NCBI RefSeq assembly: GCF_018977255.1
Contig: NW_024704742.1
Span: forward strand, 116,438,001 to 116,502,000
Length of the DNA: 64,000 nucleotides
Direction: 5' to 3'
DNA from: Callorhinchus milii
Lineage: Eukaryota
Part shown: positions 14,600 through 62,690 of the stretch, in pieces
Position numbering within the stretch: position 1 is the stretch's first letter
Layout of the letters: the number at the start of each line of letters is the position of its first letter
The notes under the pieces: model-generated
What the model was told of the DNA's origin: nothing
What the model saw: only the letters and a program-made list of their open reading frames with translations
Databases searched by the model: none
Program-made: the position numbers and the translations under genes

Positions 14600-16204
14600 A
14601 TATAAATTAAAAAATGGTAATGGAGAATATAATGAGATTCAAGATAGACAAATCTCCAGGACCTGATAGTTTCCACCCCAAGGTGTTAAAGGAAACAGGA
14701 GAGGAAATTGCAGATGCATTCGTCATAAATTTCTAAAGCTCACTAGATTCGAGAATTATGCCTTTAGACTGGAAAATTGCAAATGTCATTCCATTATTTA
14801 AAAAAGGAGGGAGAAACCGGGAAACTACAGACTTGTCAGCTTCACATCAGTTGTAGGGAAAATACTGGAATCCATCATCAGGGACAGAGTGACTGAACAT
14901 TTGGACAGGTATGAGCTAGTCAGAGAGTCAGCGTGAGTTTGTGAAGGGTAGGTCGTGTCTGACTAATCGAGTTGAATTTTTTGAGGAGGTCACTAAAATG
15001 GTTGATGAGGGAGTGTCTACGGATGTTGTTTATATGGACTTTCAGAAGGCATTTGATAAGGTTCCACCCAAAAGATTATTAGCAAAAATGGAAGCGCATG
15101 GAATCGGAGGTAACCTTGTGACGGGGCTTGGTAATTGATTGGGAGGCAGGAAACAGAGTAGTAGGGATAAAGGGAACATTTTCTGATTGTCTGGAAGTGA
15201 CACATGGTGTCCTCCAGGGGTCTGTACTGGGACCTCAGCTTTTCGCCATATATATAAATGACTTGGATAAAGGAATAGAAAATTTTGTATCCAAGTTTGC
15301 AGATGACACTAATCTAGGAGGCTCAGTAAATTGTGTAGATGGGAGTAGGAAGTTACAAAGGAATTTAGACAGATTAAGTGAGTGATAAAGCTGTGGCAGA
15401 TGGAGTTTAATGAAGTGAACTGCAAGGTCATTCACTATGGATCGAAAAAAGATAAAGCAAAATATTTTCTATTACTTAATGGGGAAAACCTAACAACTAT
15501 GGAGAAGCAAAGAGATTTGGGTGTCCATATTCACAAATCACTAAAATCTAATTCCCAGGTGGAAAAAGTAATCAAAAAGGTAAATGGGATGTTGGCCTTT
15601 ATCTCAAGGGGCCTGGAATACAGAGAAAGAAATGATGCTTCAGCTGTATAGAGCGTTAGTCAGACCCCATCTGGAGTACTGCGTTCAGTTTTGGGCACAA
15701 GACTTCAGGAAAGATATATTGGCCCTGAAAGGGGGTGCAGCGCAGGTTCACCAGAATGTTACCAGGCCTAAAGGGGTTAAGTTACGAGGAAAGGCTGCGT
15801 AAACTTGGATTGTATTCCCTTGAGTTTAGAAGGTTGAGGGGTAATTTGATTGATGTGTTTAAGATGATAAAGGGATTCGACAGGGTAGATACAGAGAAGC
15901 TATTTCTTAGTCATAGAAGACTTAGGGCATAGTCTTCAAATTAGAACCAGGCCATTTAAGAGTGAAATCAGGAAGTATTTTTTCACTCAAAGAGTGATAG
16001 ATATCTGGAACTCTCTCCCCCAAAAGGCTTTAAGAGTGAGGTTGATAGATTTTTTGTAGGTCAGGGTATCAAGGGATATGGGGAAAAAGCGGGAAATTGG
16101 AATTGACAGGATTAGTTGAGGCACAGATCAGCCATGATCTAATTGAATGGCGGAACAGGCTCAAAAGGCTGAATGGCCCTACTCCTGTTCCTATGTTCCT
16201 ATGT
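14600..16204 (+). mobile_element. CR1 LINE, 5'-truncated ORF2 (RT) with frameshifts and stops, intact 3' tail
   Basis: DKSPGPD, DWKIANV.PLFKKG, GRSCLTN, YMDFQKAFDKVP, QGSVLGP, KFADDT, LVRPHLEYCVQFW, LGLYSLEFRRLRG; ends in CCTATGTT repeats. Confidence 0.95.
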
Positions 16205-35140: not shown

Positions 35141-35972
35141 TAGTAAACAGCGTGCAAATGGATTTACAGCTTGTAGAAACTGACTGTGCATTGTACTGTT
35201 CCTAGTGTGGCATCAAGCCCAGGTAACACTATAGCCAAAATATTTTTTGCCAATAGGGGGATGTTATCATGACCAGAACAATTCATTCACTATCTACTGT
35301 ATCCTAAATAATCTTTGTTTCATGTACGGAATCATGAGAGAAAGAAACGTTCCCACACAAATATTCATGTAGGAATATTGGCGAATATCAGAAAAGACTT
35401 TGCTTATGAAGTAATGATAATGTATAAGAAACAAGCAAACAACAAACACGATGTATTCTCTATTAATGAAATGTTTCAGGCTAGGAGCCAGAAACTGAAT
35501 AAACAGATGGCTTGACAATTGTAGGGTGTTTCCTGGATGCAAATTCCTTAAACGAAAAAAACAAAGCATGGATACCAACCTCCTGCTTTTATCTTAACAC
35601 AATAAACATGGTTGAGCCAAATTGTGGGTTCTTTTGTGATCCCAATTCACTGCTAGCAAAGTTTTCTGGAACATGACAGGGTTGTGCGTGGATAGACCAC
35701 ACATCAAATCTAATCAAAAGATTATTTCTTTACAAGTGACTACTCTGGAGTTAATTATTGCTCACTTTAATAATTTTCCACTACAGATACCATTTAACAT
35801 CAGTCGGTGGAATCCTGTGCCAAAGATGCAATAGCTTGGATGCAGGCATATTTTTGAGTAAGATCAAAAGCGGCCTCTTTGAAGAGACTTCAATAATTTC
35901 AGACCCACACATTGATCAATTCAAATATGAAATAAAGGGAAGAAATTGATCTGAAAAGCTATCTAACAAGAT

Positions 35973-36598
35973 ATTTGCCCTTATTTTGTATTGAAACATC
36001 TATTCTATCCTGTGATGTGACCTGATTGTTTTGATGCCTCCATCAGGGTTGTATTTTTTACCTTTGAGTTGGGAGCCAAAGGACTGAATCAGTCTAAATT
36101 CATGGGATTGTGCAACGTACGCAAATTGGGGTGACGGCTGTGCTCTTATTCAACACCATTAGGATCTCACGGGCAATTTTTTGCTATCGGTTTATGCGTG
36201 CTCTGTGTTGTTATGTAAATGGAGTGGAGGAGACTAATGCACTGCTTTCTGCATTTACTGTTCGTAGAATATAAATGAAACATCAATGGGGTTTTATACT
36301 CTCAAATCGTAGAGAGAAATACTGGGTTTAGCCTACAATACCAGCAATAGGGCTACTGGCAGCATCGCTGTTCAGTGCTGTACAGTATTGGGTGGTATAC
36401 CATCAATGCGCATTGCAGTGGATTTTCCTGTCACGGTCACCCTAATTTGCATACATTGCACAATCCCATGAAATTGGACTGATTCAGTCCTTTGGCTCCC
36501 AACTCAAAAGTAAAAAATACAACCCTGGTGGAGGCATCAAAACAATCAAGTCACATCACAGGATGGAATAAATGTTTCAATACAAAATAAGGGCAAAT
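35973..36598. repeat. Long inverted repeat: 163-bp arms (35973-36135, 36436-36598), 300-bp spacer
   Basis: Manual alignment: 10 mismatches in 163 bp, no indels. Confidence 0.95.
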
Positions 36599-36789
36599 TG
36601 AATACAGGGAGTTAAATGAGGGCCAGTGCTAAAGGTGGCATGGGCTGAGGTTGTCAGCAACAAGTTGCATTTATATAGCGTCCTTCACGTAGAATCACGT
36701 CTCAGAGGTTTACAATGGCAGATTAGACACCGAGCAGGGGGACATAGCATTGATATTGTTTGCTTCAACAACACCTCCCTGCATTAACC

Positions 36790-36985
36790 ACCATCCAGAA
36801 TAAGATAGTGTTAACATGGGAACACCAGCACCTCCAAGTTCTCCTCCAAGACACTCACTGACCTGACTTGCACCTGTATTACCATTTCTTTATCATCTCT
36901 GGGTCAAAATCCTGGAATTCTCTTCTCTAAATCATCACCACAAACTCTGCGTTTGTTTAAAGAAAGGGCCCCACAATCTGTCTGA
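36790..36985 (+). mobile_element. Degraded 3' end of another CR1-group LINE family
   Basis: gggaacaccagcacctccaagttctcctccaag..ctgggtcaaaatcctggaattc resembles a common shark LINE 3' region (recalled). Confidence 0.5.
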
Positions 36986-37018
36986 GAGACAGTCAGACAG
37001 ACAGACAGACAGACAGAT
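36985..37018 (+). repeat. (CAGA)n microsatellite
   Basis: cagacagacagacagacagacaga. Confidence 0.9.
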
Positions 37019-37749
37019 CGTCAGAATTATAGACAAACAGAGGGAAAGAGGTAATGATAAGAGAGAAACAGAGACAGATAGAACATGAAGTGAATCACCA
37101 ATCTTGTCTGGAATATTATTGACTGAGACACCAGGAGAAATTCCCTTTACTTTTCGAGTGATATCTTTAATGTCCTCCTGAACAGGCAGATATGAAGGTT
37201 TAACGCTTCATCCACAGCTGTGTGTTCTGTGCTATGAGTATACATACAGTAGTTACTTTGTTAAAATGACCTCTGCTAAGTTGACAATATTTCCAATTGA
37301 TTTATTGTCCCTGAGGCTTGAAACAGCTGCAATCAATACATGTTAAAACTCTTGGGATTGATCTTTTGGATGGCGAGTCAGACAGCCCTGGCACATTTGA
37401 CAGTAATGCTAAACTCTTGAAGGTGTCCCTAATTTAATAGTTCATAGTGTTCTGGATTGGCATTGGGACAAGAAATAAATAGATGTGTAGAGGATTGCTG
37501 GCAGTGATTGAAGTTTGCTCGTGCTGTCAGATTTAAATTCTAATCGTGGTTCCGTTAGAGCACAACAGACAGTGCAGTCCTTTCAAAGCTTCAGTGCAAG
37601 AATTTTGCTGATTATATTTGAAAGAACACTCAATCTTCAGTCATGATGGATAAAACAGAGTTACTTTCAAAAGATCTTCTTCACTGCCTTTAACCGACCT
37701 TCTATATCTTTAATTTTTTTAAAGTATCATTTTTACTTAATAGTACAGA

Positions 37750-39157: not shown

Positions 39158-39775
39158 GGAGTCCTGTAGCTCAGTGGTTAGAGCACTGGCCTTGCAAGCG
39201 AGAGACCTGGGTTCGATTCCCGGCAGGGCAAAACCTTGGGCAAGTTTCCTTACTCCACACTCCTGATAATAATCCCTCAAGAAAAAAACAATAATAATTT
39301 GGAACTCAATCCACGACTGTATGTGGGACACTGCTGTGCACAATTGGCTGCCACGTCTCGCCCACAAAATATAGTCAATTCACTTTACAGTGTATTCTAT
39401 GAAGCACTTTGAGATGTCTCGAAGACGTGGAGTCCTGTAGCTCAGTGGTTAGAGCACTCACCTCGGAAGTGAGAGACCTGGGTTCGATTCCCAGCAGGGC
39501 GAAACCTTGGGCAAGTTTCCTTACTCCACATGCCTGATAATGATCCCTCAAGAAAAAAAAATTTGGTCTCTTCAATCCACAACTGTTTGTGGGACACTGC
39601 TGTGTGAGATTGGCTGCTGTGTTTCACCCACAAATATACAGTCAATTCACTTTACAGTATATTCTGTGAAGCGCTTTGAGAAGTCTAGAAGACTTGATAA
39701 GCGCTATATCAAATGCAAAGATTATAATTATTATTATTATTAAGGCACTATATCAAATGCAAGGATTATTATTAT
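39158..39775 (+). mobile_element. Young SINE (39158-39428 plus 39742-39775) with a second full copy nested at 39429-39741
   Basis: Two heads in series followed by two tails in series. Confidence 0.9.
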
Positions 39776-40230: not shown

Positions 40231-41380
40231 ACAACAACAATAACAAAATTACATTTGCATAGCACCTTTCACATCAGGAGGACGTCCCCGAGCTAAGGGT
40301 TGAGATTGGGGAGGGTGGAGAGCAGGGAGATCGAAAGCACGGTCGAAGAGGAGGGTTTTGAGATGAGTCTTGAAGGAGGCAAGGGAGGGGGCGAGATGGA
40401 GGGACTGCGGGATGGAGTTCCAGAGGGTGGGGGCAGCGTGGCAAAAGGCTTGCCCGATAATGGTGAGCCTGCTGGGGAGCCGGAGCCTGCTGAGCGGAGA
40501 GAGCAGCCAGGAAGGTAGGGGGTTAGGAGGTCGCAGAGGGAGGGTGGAGCAAGACCATGGAGGGCTTTGAAGGTGAGGACCAAGATCTTGAACTGTATCC
40601 TCTGAGTGATGGGAAGCCAGTGGAGTTAGGCAAGGATGGAGGTGATAGGGTCACAGAGCCTGGTGTGGAAGAGGACACATGCTGCAGAGTTCTGGATGAT
40701 CTCCAGCCTATGGAGGGAGGAGTTGGGGAGGCCGTCAAGTAAGGAGTTTGCATAGTCAAGCCTTGATGTAATGAATGGGTGTATGAGGGTTTCAGTGGCC
40801 TGCAGTGTGAAACAGTGGTGGAGCTGGGCGAGGTGGGGGAAGGCAGAGCTCATGGCACGGACGTGGGGTAGAAAGGATAGTTGAGAGTCAAACAAGGTGC
40901 CAAGGTTCCGAACTGGCTTAGCAAGGTGGAGTGTGCATCTTTGGATGGTGGTGCTGTCAGCGCCTGAGGTGAGGAGGCGCTGACAAGAGCCAATCAGGAG
41001 AGTCTCAGTCTTGTTGACATTCAACTGAAGAACGTTAGCTCTCATCCAGGACTTGATGTCTGACAGACATTCTGTCAGGACAGCAGTGGTCCTGGAGTCA
41101 AGGATGGAGGCAGAGAGGTACAATTGGGTGTTATCCGTATACATATGGAAGTTGACCTCATGTCTGTGATTGATGTCACCAAGAGGGAGCCTATAGATGT
41201 TGAAGAGAAGGGGACCAAGGACAGAGCCCTGAGGATCGCCGCACAAGACGGTGCGGGGGCTAGAGGAGAAACTGTTTGTGGAGATAAAGAGGAGGCGGTT
41301 TGAGAGGTATGATCTGAACCGTTCAAGGACAGAATTGTGAAGGTTGAGGTGCGAGGAGAGACGATGGAGGAGAATAGAGA
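40231..41380 (-). mobile_element. L2 LINE, 5'-truncated (RT plus C-terminus)
   Basis: ORF 40626..41405: RFRSYLSNR, PQGSVLGPLLFNIY, HMYTDNTQLY, FITSRLDYANSLL; tail appears as (CAA)n at 40231. Confidence 0.95.
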
Positions 41381-41406
41381 TATTTCCTGGGCAGTGCTCT
41401 GCCATT

Positions 41407-60712: not shown

Positions 60713-61859
60713 GGCTGAAAGGCTCTGGTCAGATATGCAATAGAAACAAGTCTACTCTTGTCTGAGCACAGCACAGATAAGATAGTATTAGTGTGTGCAC
60801 CTGCAGTTTTGGCCTTAATGAGACATAAATATATGAATATGTTGAAAGAGATGTTCTTCACCTAAAGGAACATGTTTCCCATTGTAAGTTCATTCACCCC
60901 TGACATGTTTGGTCCATCTAAGATACACTTCCATAATGTTAGCAACAAACATAACAATTGTAAAAGTATGGTAATCTTAATAATAATAATCCTTGCATTT
61001 GGTATACTGCCTTTCACGACAGGAGGACGTCTTATGTTATCAAAGTCTCAAGTTGCTGAACTCTTAAATGTCTGTTATCAATTTCTCTGACGTCAGAATT
61101 TGGGCCATAGGTAAGCACAGCAACAATCTCAGCTACAATGCCCCCAAAGGTTCAGTGGCCTACTATCACTGTTTGGTTTCACACACAAAAAACGGCCAAA
61201 GCCAACAGAGTGACCAACACCTGTGGAGCCAATCCTCAGCAAGAGTCAGAGTCACCCAATCTACAGTAGAGAAAATTGGATGTAAAATAAGAGGATGATC
61301 TGAAATTTCAGAATAGCAGTCTTTATTGAACAGTGTCCAAAAGGTGGAATGATAACAAGAGCACAAGAGCAGCAACATGTGTCACTGCAGCAGTGATGTG
61401 CTTTCAATCCCTTGAGGATTTGACAATCTCAATTGATGTGGGCAATAACTCCCGTGGGCATGGATAGTCAGAGAGAAAGTCGCAGCCTATCTGCTATCTA
61501 TGGCAGAACCATTTCACCTGCTTGCTCTTTCACCTGCAGCATTTAAGATTTAGAAAGGATGGAATGAGCGACAGCTCTTCAGCCCACTTCTTCTACAGGG
61601 TAATTAATGCAAACAACAATAGATTCATAGATTCTGGGGTCAACATTTTAGTAGCTATATGGTACTTGAGTAAAGGAGTCCAGAGTGTTTTGTCGTGTTT
61701 ACTTTTACACTGAAAATGTAATGCTTGAAAATTGTACTTTTTCAATGTTAGGCTCTGAGAGAGTCAATATGTCCCAATGTGATTGTAGTCAATTTGAAGA
61801 CGTTTTCTGAATGGGGCTCTGCATCCTGTTCAACAAGCACAGAGTCATGCCACTGTGTA

Positions 61860-62690
61860 TGTACTCCAGTATTAATGGGAAGTGGACATGCAAAGATGAA
61901 CTCCAGAGAAGGTGTGGAGTGGCAGTGGAGGAAGCTGAGCTCTTACTATTCCTGGTGTCATTGGTCGTGAATTTCCATCAGAGTCTTTTTGGGGCCACTG
62001 GCAATATTGGCTGGCACAAGCAAAAGAGCAATGTGTGGTCGGAAATAAGGCACCAGGTCAATGTTGTTAATGTGTCCAGTGTATCCAGTATGGCATTAAA
62101 TGAACTGAAGGGAAAGGTAAGATGAACAGAACAGAATAATTTACATTGACGTGTTTCTAAGCACTTTGGAGACAGAATCACCTTCACAGTGGGCACATTT
62201 ACTTGTCAAGGGCCCTCACATGAGGACCTGGATTAAGCAGCTGGCCTTTAGTAAGCTTGGCATTAGACTTGGAACTCAAGAACATCAAGCTGTCCTTTAA
62301 AGGTCCTCCTACTATGCTGAAGGCAAATGTCCGCTATATAGTTGATGAGCGAAATCTGAGACTTCGGGCGACAGCTCCTGGACGTGTTACCTGGAGTCCA
62401 AGTTGATGAACACGCGTTCATACATTCAGCACCTGAAATCCACCTTGATTGGCTTGCATAGAGGTAAGCAGCTGTTCCACCAACTGGTGGAAACATCGCT
62501 CAAAGGGAAAGGATATGTGCCCGAACTGTGGACAGGAAGATGGCGGCGATGCTCTCACACTTTTCATGCTGAGCTGTGTTGTCCACCAGGAAGCTTGCAG
62601 GGAATTCCTGGTACCTAACATCCACCTAGTGAGGATTCAAACCTGTGATTATCAGATGTCAAATGGCCAACCGGTGACTATCCTCCTTGG
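61860..62690 (+). mobile_element. Possible Tx1/L1-clade ORF2 C-terminal relic
   Basis: Frameshifted peptides DVLPGVQV..HSAPEI..WLAxR and CPNCGQE...LSC echo the Tx1 SPEL..LAW..R..CP..CG.E..H..C zinc-knuckle region. Confidence 0.35.

What the first reader, a model, noticed from the sequence alone, without database searches (positions are those of the whole stretch)
35973..36598. 163-bp, ~94% identical inverted repeat around a 300-bp spacer
Seen: arms align without gaps with 10 mismatches, 9 of them transitions. Each arm holds an inner palindrome (ggactga-x-tcagtc). There is no clean TSD (TA on the left, TT on the right) and no other copy in the window. Inferred: either a long-TIR non-autonomous DNA transposon or a local inverted duplication kept similar by arm-to-arm conversion. 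If transcribed it would form long dsRNA (endo-siRNA or ADAR substrate); several mismatches become G-U pairs, most on the minus strand.
Basis: partly seen in the sequence, partly recalled or inferred. Interest (0 to 1): 0.7.

Follow-up and report, generated by a model that had tools for sequence, protein, structure and literature searches.

The report
Single-copy inverted duplication exchanging arm bases
A 163-base piece of otherwise unique non-coding DNA sits twice, back to back, in a fish genome; it is not a multi-copy jumping element, and its two copies seem to swap bases with each other, a known by-product of DNA copying and repair with no sign of a function.

Summary
The inverted repeat is real: arms 35973-36135 and 36436-36598, 10 mismatches, 300-bp spacer. 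Contigs of three sequencing samples cover the left arm, the spacer and the inner 68 bp of the right arm, so it is not an assembly artefact. It is not a MITE family: there is no target-site duplication, and one contig per place covers arm and spacer while about 1,900-2,100 contigs per run pile on the neighbouring SINE tail. In 3 of 3 samples the left arm carries the right arm's base at 36043 and 36062, and the contig ends imply that a third, adjacent mismatch is also levelled. No difference shared by all three lies in 1,114 bp of spacer and flank (Fisher p 0.03 for the two listed sites, 0.005 for three; post hoc). Best reading: a local inverted duplication of unique DNA whose arms still exchange sequence, by conversion or by spacer flipping; these data cannot tell which. 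The inner palindrome, transition excess and G-U strand bias are at chance level. Transcription and editing are not shown. Known kind of feature; low interest.

The parts
35973..36135 (+). Left arm, 163 bp, unique non-coding sequence
   Evidence: covered by contigs in X1, X3, X4
36136..36435 (.). Spacer, 300 bp, unique; orientation relative to the flanks in other individuals unknown
   Evidence: inside one unbroken 436-bp contig in 3 of 3 samples
36436..36598 (-). Right arm, 163 bp, reverse complement of the left arm at 93.9%
   Evidence: inner part 36436-36503 covered by contigs
36023..36097 (+). Widest bounds of the exchanged tract (arm offsets 50-124). Left-arm sites 36043 and 36062 carry the right-arm base in 3 of 3 samples; the pair 36095/36476 is inferred to be equal in both arms
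   Evidence: table 3 (two sites); contig ends 36097 and 36068-36503 reproduced only when offset 122 is equal in both arms
36081..36095 (.). Inner quasi-palindrome (6-bp arms left; 7-bp arms in the right-arm copy at 36476-36490); chance level
36655..36716 (-). Tail fragment of a high-copy SINE/L2-type repeat, 56 bp outside the right arm; not part of the element; served as positive control for repeat detection

Best explanation
A one-off local inverted duplication of unique non-coding DNA whose arms still exchange sequence. Step 1 (inferred): during replication or break repair the nascent strand switched to the opposite strand nearby, copied 163 bases backwards and returned, giving arm-spacer-arm (four-point template-switch types 3-2-1-4 or 3-1-2-4, or the longer-range FoSTeS/MMBIR equivalent). 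Step 2 (shown): it stayed at one locus, with no TSD and no dispersed copies seen. Step 3 (partly shown): the arms, 300 bp apart and 94-96% alike, pair with each other in the germ line, and a tract over offsets 70-122 differs between the window and three other samples exactly as if bases had moved between arms. The simplest event is one right-to-left conversion tract of 53-75 bp; a crossover in offsets 50-69 that flips the spacer, plus one levelled site, fits as well. No function is needed.
For: Single locus: summed depth in arm and spacer bins is accounted for by one contig per place plus one 30-nt piece (X1 5.9-10.1, X3 10.4-18.4, X4 7.3-12.6 per bin), against 44,000-74,000 in the two SINE-tail bins; the left contig runs unbroken across the outer arm boundary. 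No TSD. No Pfam family in the ORFs over the locus and 0 hits for the 37-aa frame open in both arms among 1.84 billion proteins. Exchange: 36043 T>C and 36062 C>T, both the right-arm base, in 3 of 3 samples; the window haplotype would give a 442-bp loop contig, the observed 436 bp needs equal bases at offset 122. Differences shared by all three samples: 3 in 231 covered arm bases, 0 in 1,114 non-arm bases (Fisher p 0.005; 0.029 with the two listed sites only). Independent mutations in the samples' lineage landing on mismatch sites with the other arm's base: about 8e-5. The three sites are consecutive among the ten (chance 0.067). Mechanisms in print: PMC5453318 and PMC8604942 (passages), PMC1803023 (passages).
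Against: A new mutation in one arm of the window's own haplotype would also look like 'samples carry the other arm's base', so coincidence with mismatch sites is no evidence by itself; only the clustering is, and it was tested after seeing the data. Counting all variant sites (3 arm, 4 non-arm) gives p 0.10. The third site is inferred from contig ends and its direction is ambiguous: the tool's count of 2 other letters in the left contig favours 36476 G>A, whereas a single tract predicts 3. The three samples come from one study. No outgroup was available, so the origin step and the ancestral state are untested. Events in PMC5453318 are described as short-range; a 163-bp copy at 300 bp is larger than the few tens of bases discussed in the passages I read. 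No clear microhomology at the junctions.
Confidence: 0.65

Rival explanations
1. Same local duplication, but no ongoing exchange: the three differences are private point mutations or consensus errors of the window's haplotype, and the arms are simply 95.7% alike in most individuals.
For: Explains the coincidence with mismatch sites trivially; all-variant test p 0.10; raw reads of the assembled individual were not examined.
Against: Three private changes all inside 231 of 1,345 covered bases has chance about 0.005; they are consecutive mismatch sites (0.067) and all are transitions.
Confidence: 0.14
2. A solitary or very old non-autonomous long-TIR DNA transposon (foldback, MULE or MITE relic) whose sister copies have decayed below 80% likeness while its own arms were kept alike by conversion and its TSD eroded.
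For: Size 626 bp and TIR-spacer-TIR layout fit MITE dimensions (PMC4726161 passages); exchange between arms would make them look younger than the element; a few short pieces of other contigs lie on the left flank and arm.
Against: No TSD; no long piece from another locus on arm or spacer at 80% likeness in 3 of 3 runs although about 1,900-2,100 contigs per run were laid; about 2.6 chance 30-nt matches per Mb laid are expected; the ends resemble no TIR superfamily end that I recall (recalled, not tested).
Confidence: 0.11
3. A selected RNA structure: the locus is transcribed through both arms and the 163-bp duplex serves as an ADAR substrate or endo-siRNA source.
For: Either strand folds into a near-perfect long duplex (-353.7 plus, -333.4 minus kcal/mol).
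Against: No strand preference in G-U pairs (5 vs 4) or duplex energy; no compensatory pair can be shown; no Rfam family at the locus; no host exon identified by Pfam in the window, though short exons would be missed.
Confidence: 0.06
4. Assembly artefact, in whole or in the outer part of the right arm.
For: No long reads were examined.
Against: Three samples hold a 436-bp contig with both inner arms and the spacer, differing from the window by 1-2 letters, and the right-arm bases at two outer sites exist in real reads; the arms differ at 10 sites, which a fold-back chimera would not produce.
Confidence: 0.04

Closest known systems
Template-switch mutations, four-point model (Loytynoja and Goldman 2017, PMC5453318; passages read)
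   Same: Types 3-2-1-4 and 3-1-2-4 create a new inverted repeat from nearby unique sequence, the second with an inverted spacer; no pre-existing repeat is needed.
   Different: Described as short-range events; here the arm is 163 bp and the span 626 bp, and the pre-event state could not be seen.
Arm homogenisation and spacer inversion between inverted-repeat arms in yeast (PMC8604942; passages read)
   Same: One arm templates the other, with or without spacer inversion, polymorphic among strains.
   Different: Arms of 7-16 bp and spacers up to 70 bp in coding DNA; here ten times larger and non-coding.
Intergenic inverted repeats kept alike in Caenorhabditis (PMC1803023; passages read)
   Same: Near-identical scale (160-bp arms, 126-bp spacer, 95.7%; 124-bp arms, 414-bp spacer), with gene conversion proposed.
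   Different: Those lie between duplicated gene pairs and are shown to be conserved as structures across species; here no gene pair was found and no orthologue could be examined.
Human inversions mediated by inverted repeats (PMC3961182; passages read) and sex-chromosome palindromes (search listing only)
   Same: Exchange between arms with recurrent flipping of the inner segment.
   Different: Those are kilobase-scale; flipping is not shown here.
MITEs (definition in PMC4726161; passages read)
   Same: TIR-spacer-TIR, 50-800 bp, non-coding.
   Different: No TSD and no family of copies.

Membership tests
MITE / non-autonomous TIR transposon | Terminal inverted repeats of at least 10 nt, total 50-800 nt, no coding capacity | tested here: met
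   163-bp arms, 626 bp; no Pfam or protein hit; definition
MITE / non-autonomous TIR transposon | Target-site duplication of 2-10 nt | tested here: not met
   None at the boundaries; best shifted match 3 nt, at chance level
MITE / non-autonomous TIR transposon | Three or more copies with different flanks | tested here: not met
   One contig per place over arm and spacer, unbroken across the left outer boundary, in 3 of 3 runs at 80% likeness. Copies under 80%, or paths dropped by the assembler, would be missed; tables 7 and 8 were cut
MITE / non-autonomous TIR transposon | Empty orthologous or allelic site; autonomous partner with the same ends | not testable with these tools
   No genome held; no joint skipping exactly 35973-36598 was listed
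Template-switch inverted duplication | Reverse-complement copy of nearby unique sequence, no other source locus | tested here: met
Template-switch inverted duplication | Ancestral state without the repeat in a relative, explained by two switches | not testable with these tools
   No look-alike stretch in other genomes of the scan; no eukaryote genome search available
Template-switch inverted duplication | Microhomology at switch points | tested here: inconclusive
   Four possible pre-event joins inspected; only a short GTCAC tandem at the right inner junction
Arm-to-arm gene conversion (concerted evolution) | Arm-distinguishing sites polymorphic with the other arm's base, in tracts | tested here: met
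   Two sites seen and one inferred, consecutive, 3 of 3 samples; direction and ancestral state unknown
Arm-to-arm gene conversion (concerted evolution) | Arms within a species more alike than orthologous arms between species | not testable with these tools
   No orthologue available
Inverted-repeat-mediated inversion polymorphism | Both spacer orientations present in the species | tested here: inconclusive
   Contigs break at the shared 30-mer; conversion and inversion models give the same contigs
ADAR substrate / endo-siRNA hairpin | Long stable intramolecular duplex if transcribed | tested here: met
ADAR substrate / endo-siRNA hairpin | Transcription through both arms, A-to-I clusters or 21-22-nt reads | tested here: inconclusive
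   Only contigs of one run guessed to be RNA were laid; see Tried and rejected

The most novel reading that the evidence does not exclude
The repeat is ancient and shared with related cartilaginous fishes, its structure rather than its sequence is preserved by recurrent arm exchange, the spacer flips as a standing polymorphism, and a transcript through it forms a 163-bp duplex used by ADAR or Dicer. With the several similar single-copy inverted duplications that earlier unchecked notes list for this genome, this would be a class of gene-free mini-palindromes evolving in concert in a vertebrate.
Probability: 0.08. Interest if true: 0.6.

Novelty: new member of a known kind. Interest (0 to 1): 0.25.

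Why it matters
Modestly. It removes a candidate transposon and a candidate RNA device. What remains is a small natural test case: a 163-bp, gene-free inverted repeat in a vertebrate in which exchange between arms seems to be caught as a polymorphism. With phased reads and one outgroup it would give the tract length and direction of conversion, or show spacer flipping, at a scale between short template switches (tens of bases) and kilobase palindromes.

Tried and rejected
No whole genome is held for this window, so no genome-wide BLAST. Run search: no RNA holder listed; 24 runs listed, 5 hold half or more of the words; 4 of the 24 were laid (X1, X3, X4, X9). X9 (RNA is a guess) gave one locus-specific contig, 36076-36240, depth 2.6, with 4 other letters that the tool did not list: it shows neither transcription, strand nor editing. 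Part without cover: 36504-36653 has no locus contig in 3 of 3 runs; the tool warns that a hole proves nothing. Simulation shows the left contig can reach 36097 only if that path is not in the graph, and the shares of words held (X1-X3 0.87-0.89, X4 0.83) fit 0.875 predicted with the hole better than 0.954 without. I read this as removal of a short path beside a high-copy SINE by the assembler's simplification (Logan contigs are simplified k=31 graphs, bioRxiv 10.1101/2024.07.30.605881, passages; the specific low-coverage-connection rule is recalled, not read), but a shorter right arm in these samples gives the same two contigs once its own path is dropped. Joint 36065 to 36661 in X1 and X3 (sides 30 and 27): rejected as probably chance or another locus, since about 2.6 such 30-nt matches per Mb laid are expected, although none was found in 62 kb of the window itself, and a true deletion allele would break the left contig. 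Exon in arm or spacer: 362 ORFs (359 of 584 stop-to-stop frames of at least 45 aa that were under 40% repeat and free of N, plus 3 others) gave 4 Pfam hits, none at the locus and all transposon-type; the 37-aa frame open in both arms had 0 hits; a crude splice-motif scan found no acceptor-donor pair inside the spacer. SINE-carried inverted host copy: rejected, the tail fragment starts 56 bp outside the arm and is only 70-88% like its window relatives. Dating: JC distance 0.044-0.064 would be 3-5e7 generations at the epaulette-shark rate of 7e-10 (PMC10587355 passage); other species, wide interval and arm exchange make this unusable except to say the repeat is probably not recent. Paper searches listed nothing on this locus or on small single-copy inverted repeats in chimaeras; listings only, subscription papers and supplements not seen, so this is no claim of absence from print.

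Full report
Observation. The repeat is as described: arms 35973-36135 and 36436-36598, ungapped, 10 mismatches at arm offsets 27, 33, 49, 70, 89, 122, 125, 143, 147 and 155, nine of them transitions, with a 300-bp spacer. Similarity stops sharply at both ends. Neither arm nor spacer recurs in the window. Of 20 inverted pairs less than 2 kb apart in the window it is the most alike (93.9%; the other 19 are 69-90%).

Setting. The window is about 40% GC and about 29% self-repeated, with tRNA-headed SINEs (7 Rfam tRNA hits) and reverse-transcriptase fragments. Of 362 ORFs scanned, 4 hit Pfam, all transposon-type and none at the locus; exons in frames shorter than 45 codons would be missed, so the locus may be intronic or intergenic. 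Earlier AI notes call the genome elephant shark or chimaera and list several other local inverted duplications in it; I did not verify the species, and these notes are leads only.

Is it real, and how many copies? Four runs hold 83-89% of the sampled words of 35200-37000. I laid three of them and one possible RNA run on 35400-36900 at 80% likeness. Each of the three gave one contig over 35400-36097 and one of 436 bp over 36068-36503, that is both inner arms and the spacer, with mirror-symmetric ends. The tool warns that summed depth is no copy number, so I rely on the contrast and on contiguity: arm and spacer bins are accounted for by one contig per place (plus one 30-nt piece in two runs), the SINE tail next door draws depths of 44,000-74,000 from the 1,885-2,073 contigs laid per run, and the left contig crosses the outer arm boundary unbroken. 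A family of 94%-identical elements would have been laid and would have broken that contig. With no TSD, two defining MITE features (PMC4726161 passages) are not met. Limits: copies under 80%, paths dropped by the assembler, and rows cut from tables 7 and 8 are not seen; the outer right arm is not confirmed by these contigs.

Exchange between arms. In 3 of 3 samples the arm attached to the left flank has C at 36043 and T at 36062, the right arm's bases, but keeps left-arm bases at offsets 27, 33 and 49. A k=31 graph simulation of the window haplotype gives a loop contig of 442 bp (36065-36506); the observed 436 bp appears only when both arms have the same base at offset 122. Three models fit the contig ends: left arm changed at 70 and 89 plus 36476 G>A; a crossover in offsets 50-69 that flips the spacer plus the same change; or one right-to-left tract over 70, 89 and 122. 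The last is the simplest event but predicts 3 other letters in the left contig where the tool counts 2; the third would lie 3 bases from the contig end, and I do not know how the tool treats that. Outside the arms the samples differ from the window at 0 (X1), 1 (X3) and 3 (X4) places in 1,114 covered bases, none shared. Shared differences are thus 3 in 231 arm bases against 0 in 1,114 (p 0.005; 0.029 for the two listed sites; 0.10 if all variant sites are counted). If the samples are the derived state, independent mutation is excluded (about 8e-5); if the window is derived, three private changes must cluster in the arms (about 0.005). These tests are post hoc, the samples are from one study, and contigs hide heterozygous alleles.

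Mechanism. Shown: a real, single-locus, TSD-less inverted repeat with arm-type bases that differ between haplotypes. Inferred: origin by a template switch or break repair that copied 163 bases backwards; four-point types 3-2-1-4 and 3-1-2-4 give this layout (PMC5453318 passages), though that paper treats short-range events. Inferred: later arm-templated repair, as in yeast arm homogenisation and spacer inversion (PMC8604942 passages) and nematode intergenic repeats of almost this size (PMC1803023 passages). Not shown: which arm is the original, the ancestral spacer orientation, flipping, any function. The four candidate pre-event joins show no clear microhomology.

RNA reading. Either strand would fold into a long duplex, with no energetic preference between strands at the arm level and no Rfam match. 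Transcription and editing remain open; what the RNA-run attempt gave is told under Tried and rejected.

Verdict. A new example of a known kind: local inverted duplication with probable arm-to-arm exchange (0.65). Rivals: no exchange (0.14), eroded solitary TIR element (0.11), selected dsRNA (0.06), artefact (0.04). Interest 0.25. Supplements of the papers were not read; they might bear on the upper size of template-switch events.

Noticed in passing
window 61811-62122 +: Open frame with a weak Myb/SANT-like domain hit (PF13873, E 3.6e-4, 20.9 bits, under the 21.7 cut-off). Probably a Harbinger-type transposon remnant (association recalled).
   Followed up: partly
window 14920-15382 +, 40629-41405 -, 134-1009 +: LINE remnants: RVT_1 hits for the first two; the third is a 292-aa frame alike in sequence to the second region without a Pfam hit.
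   Followed up: partly
window 10743, 12010, 13160, 25831, 39160, 39431, 48686 (+): Seven tRNA-like SINE heads pass the Rfam tRNA threshold, up to 66 bits; two sit in tandem 271 bp apart at 39160 and 39431.
   Followed up: no
window 36136-36435: Spacer has 8 CpG, observed/expected 0.60 against 0.28 for the window (P 0.04, one of several things tested).
   Followed up: partly
window 36424-36445 and 36599-36601: The right inner junction holds a short GTCAC tandem, and joining the spacer end directly to the right flank would make an 8-bp palindrome; may be a junction scar or chance.
   Followed up: partly
window 36476: The window's right-arm base here extends the inner palindrome from 6 to 7 bp; it is one of the three sites levelled in the samples, so a quasi-palindrome template switch is a possible source.
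   Followed up: partly
window 35706-35807, 35859-35909, 36036-36065: Short pieces from other contigs are laid here in several runs, one with an apparent joint to 36661; chance level or traces of an old low-copy repeat.
   Followed up: partly
window 36726-36900: About double depth in three runs and weak matches elsewhere in the window: likely an old LINE 3' fragment. A (GACA)n run follows near 36990-37020.
   Followed up: no
window 3678: A single N, the only one in the window.
   Followed up: no
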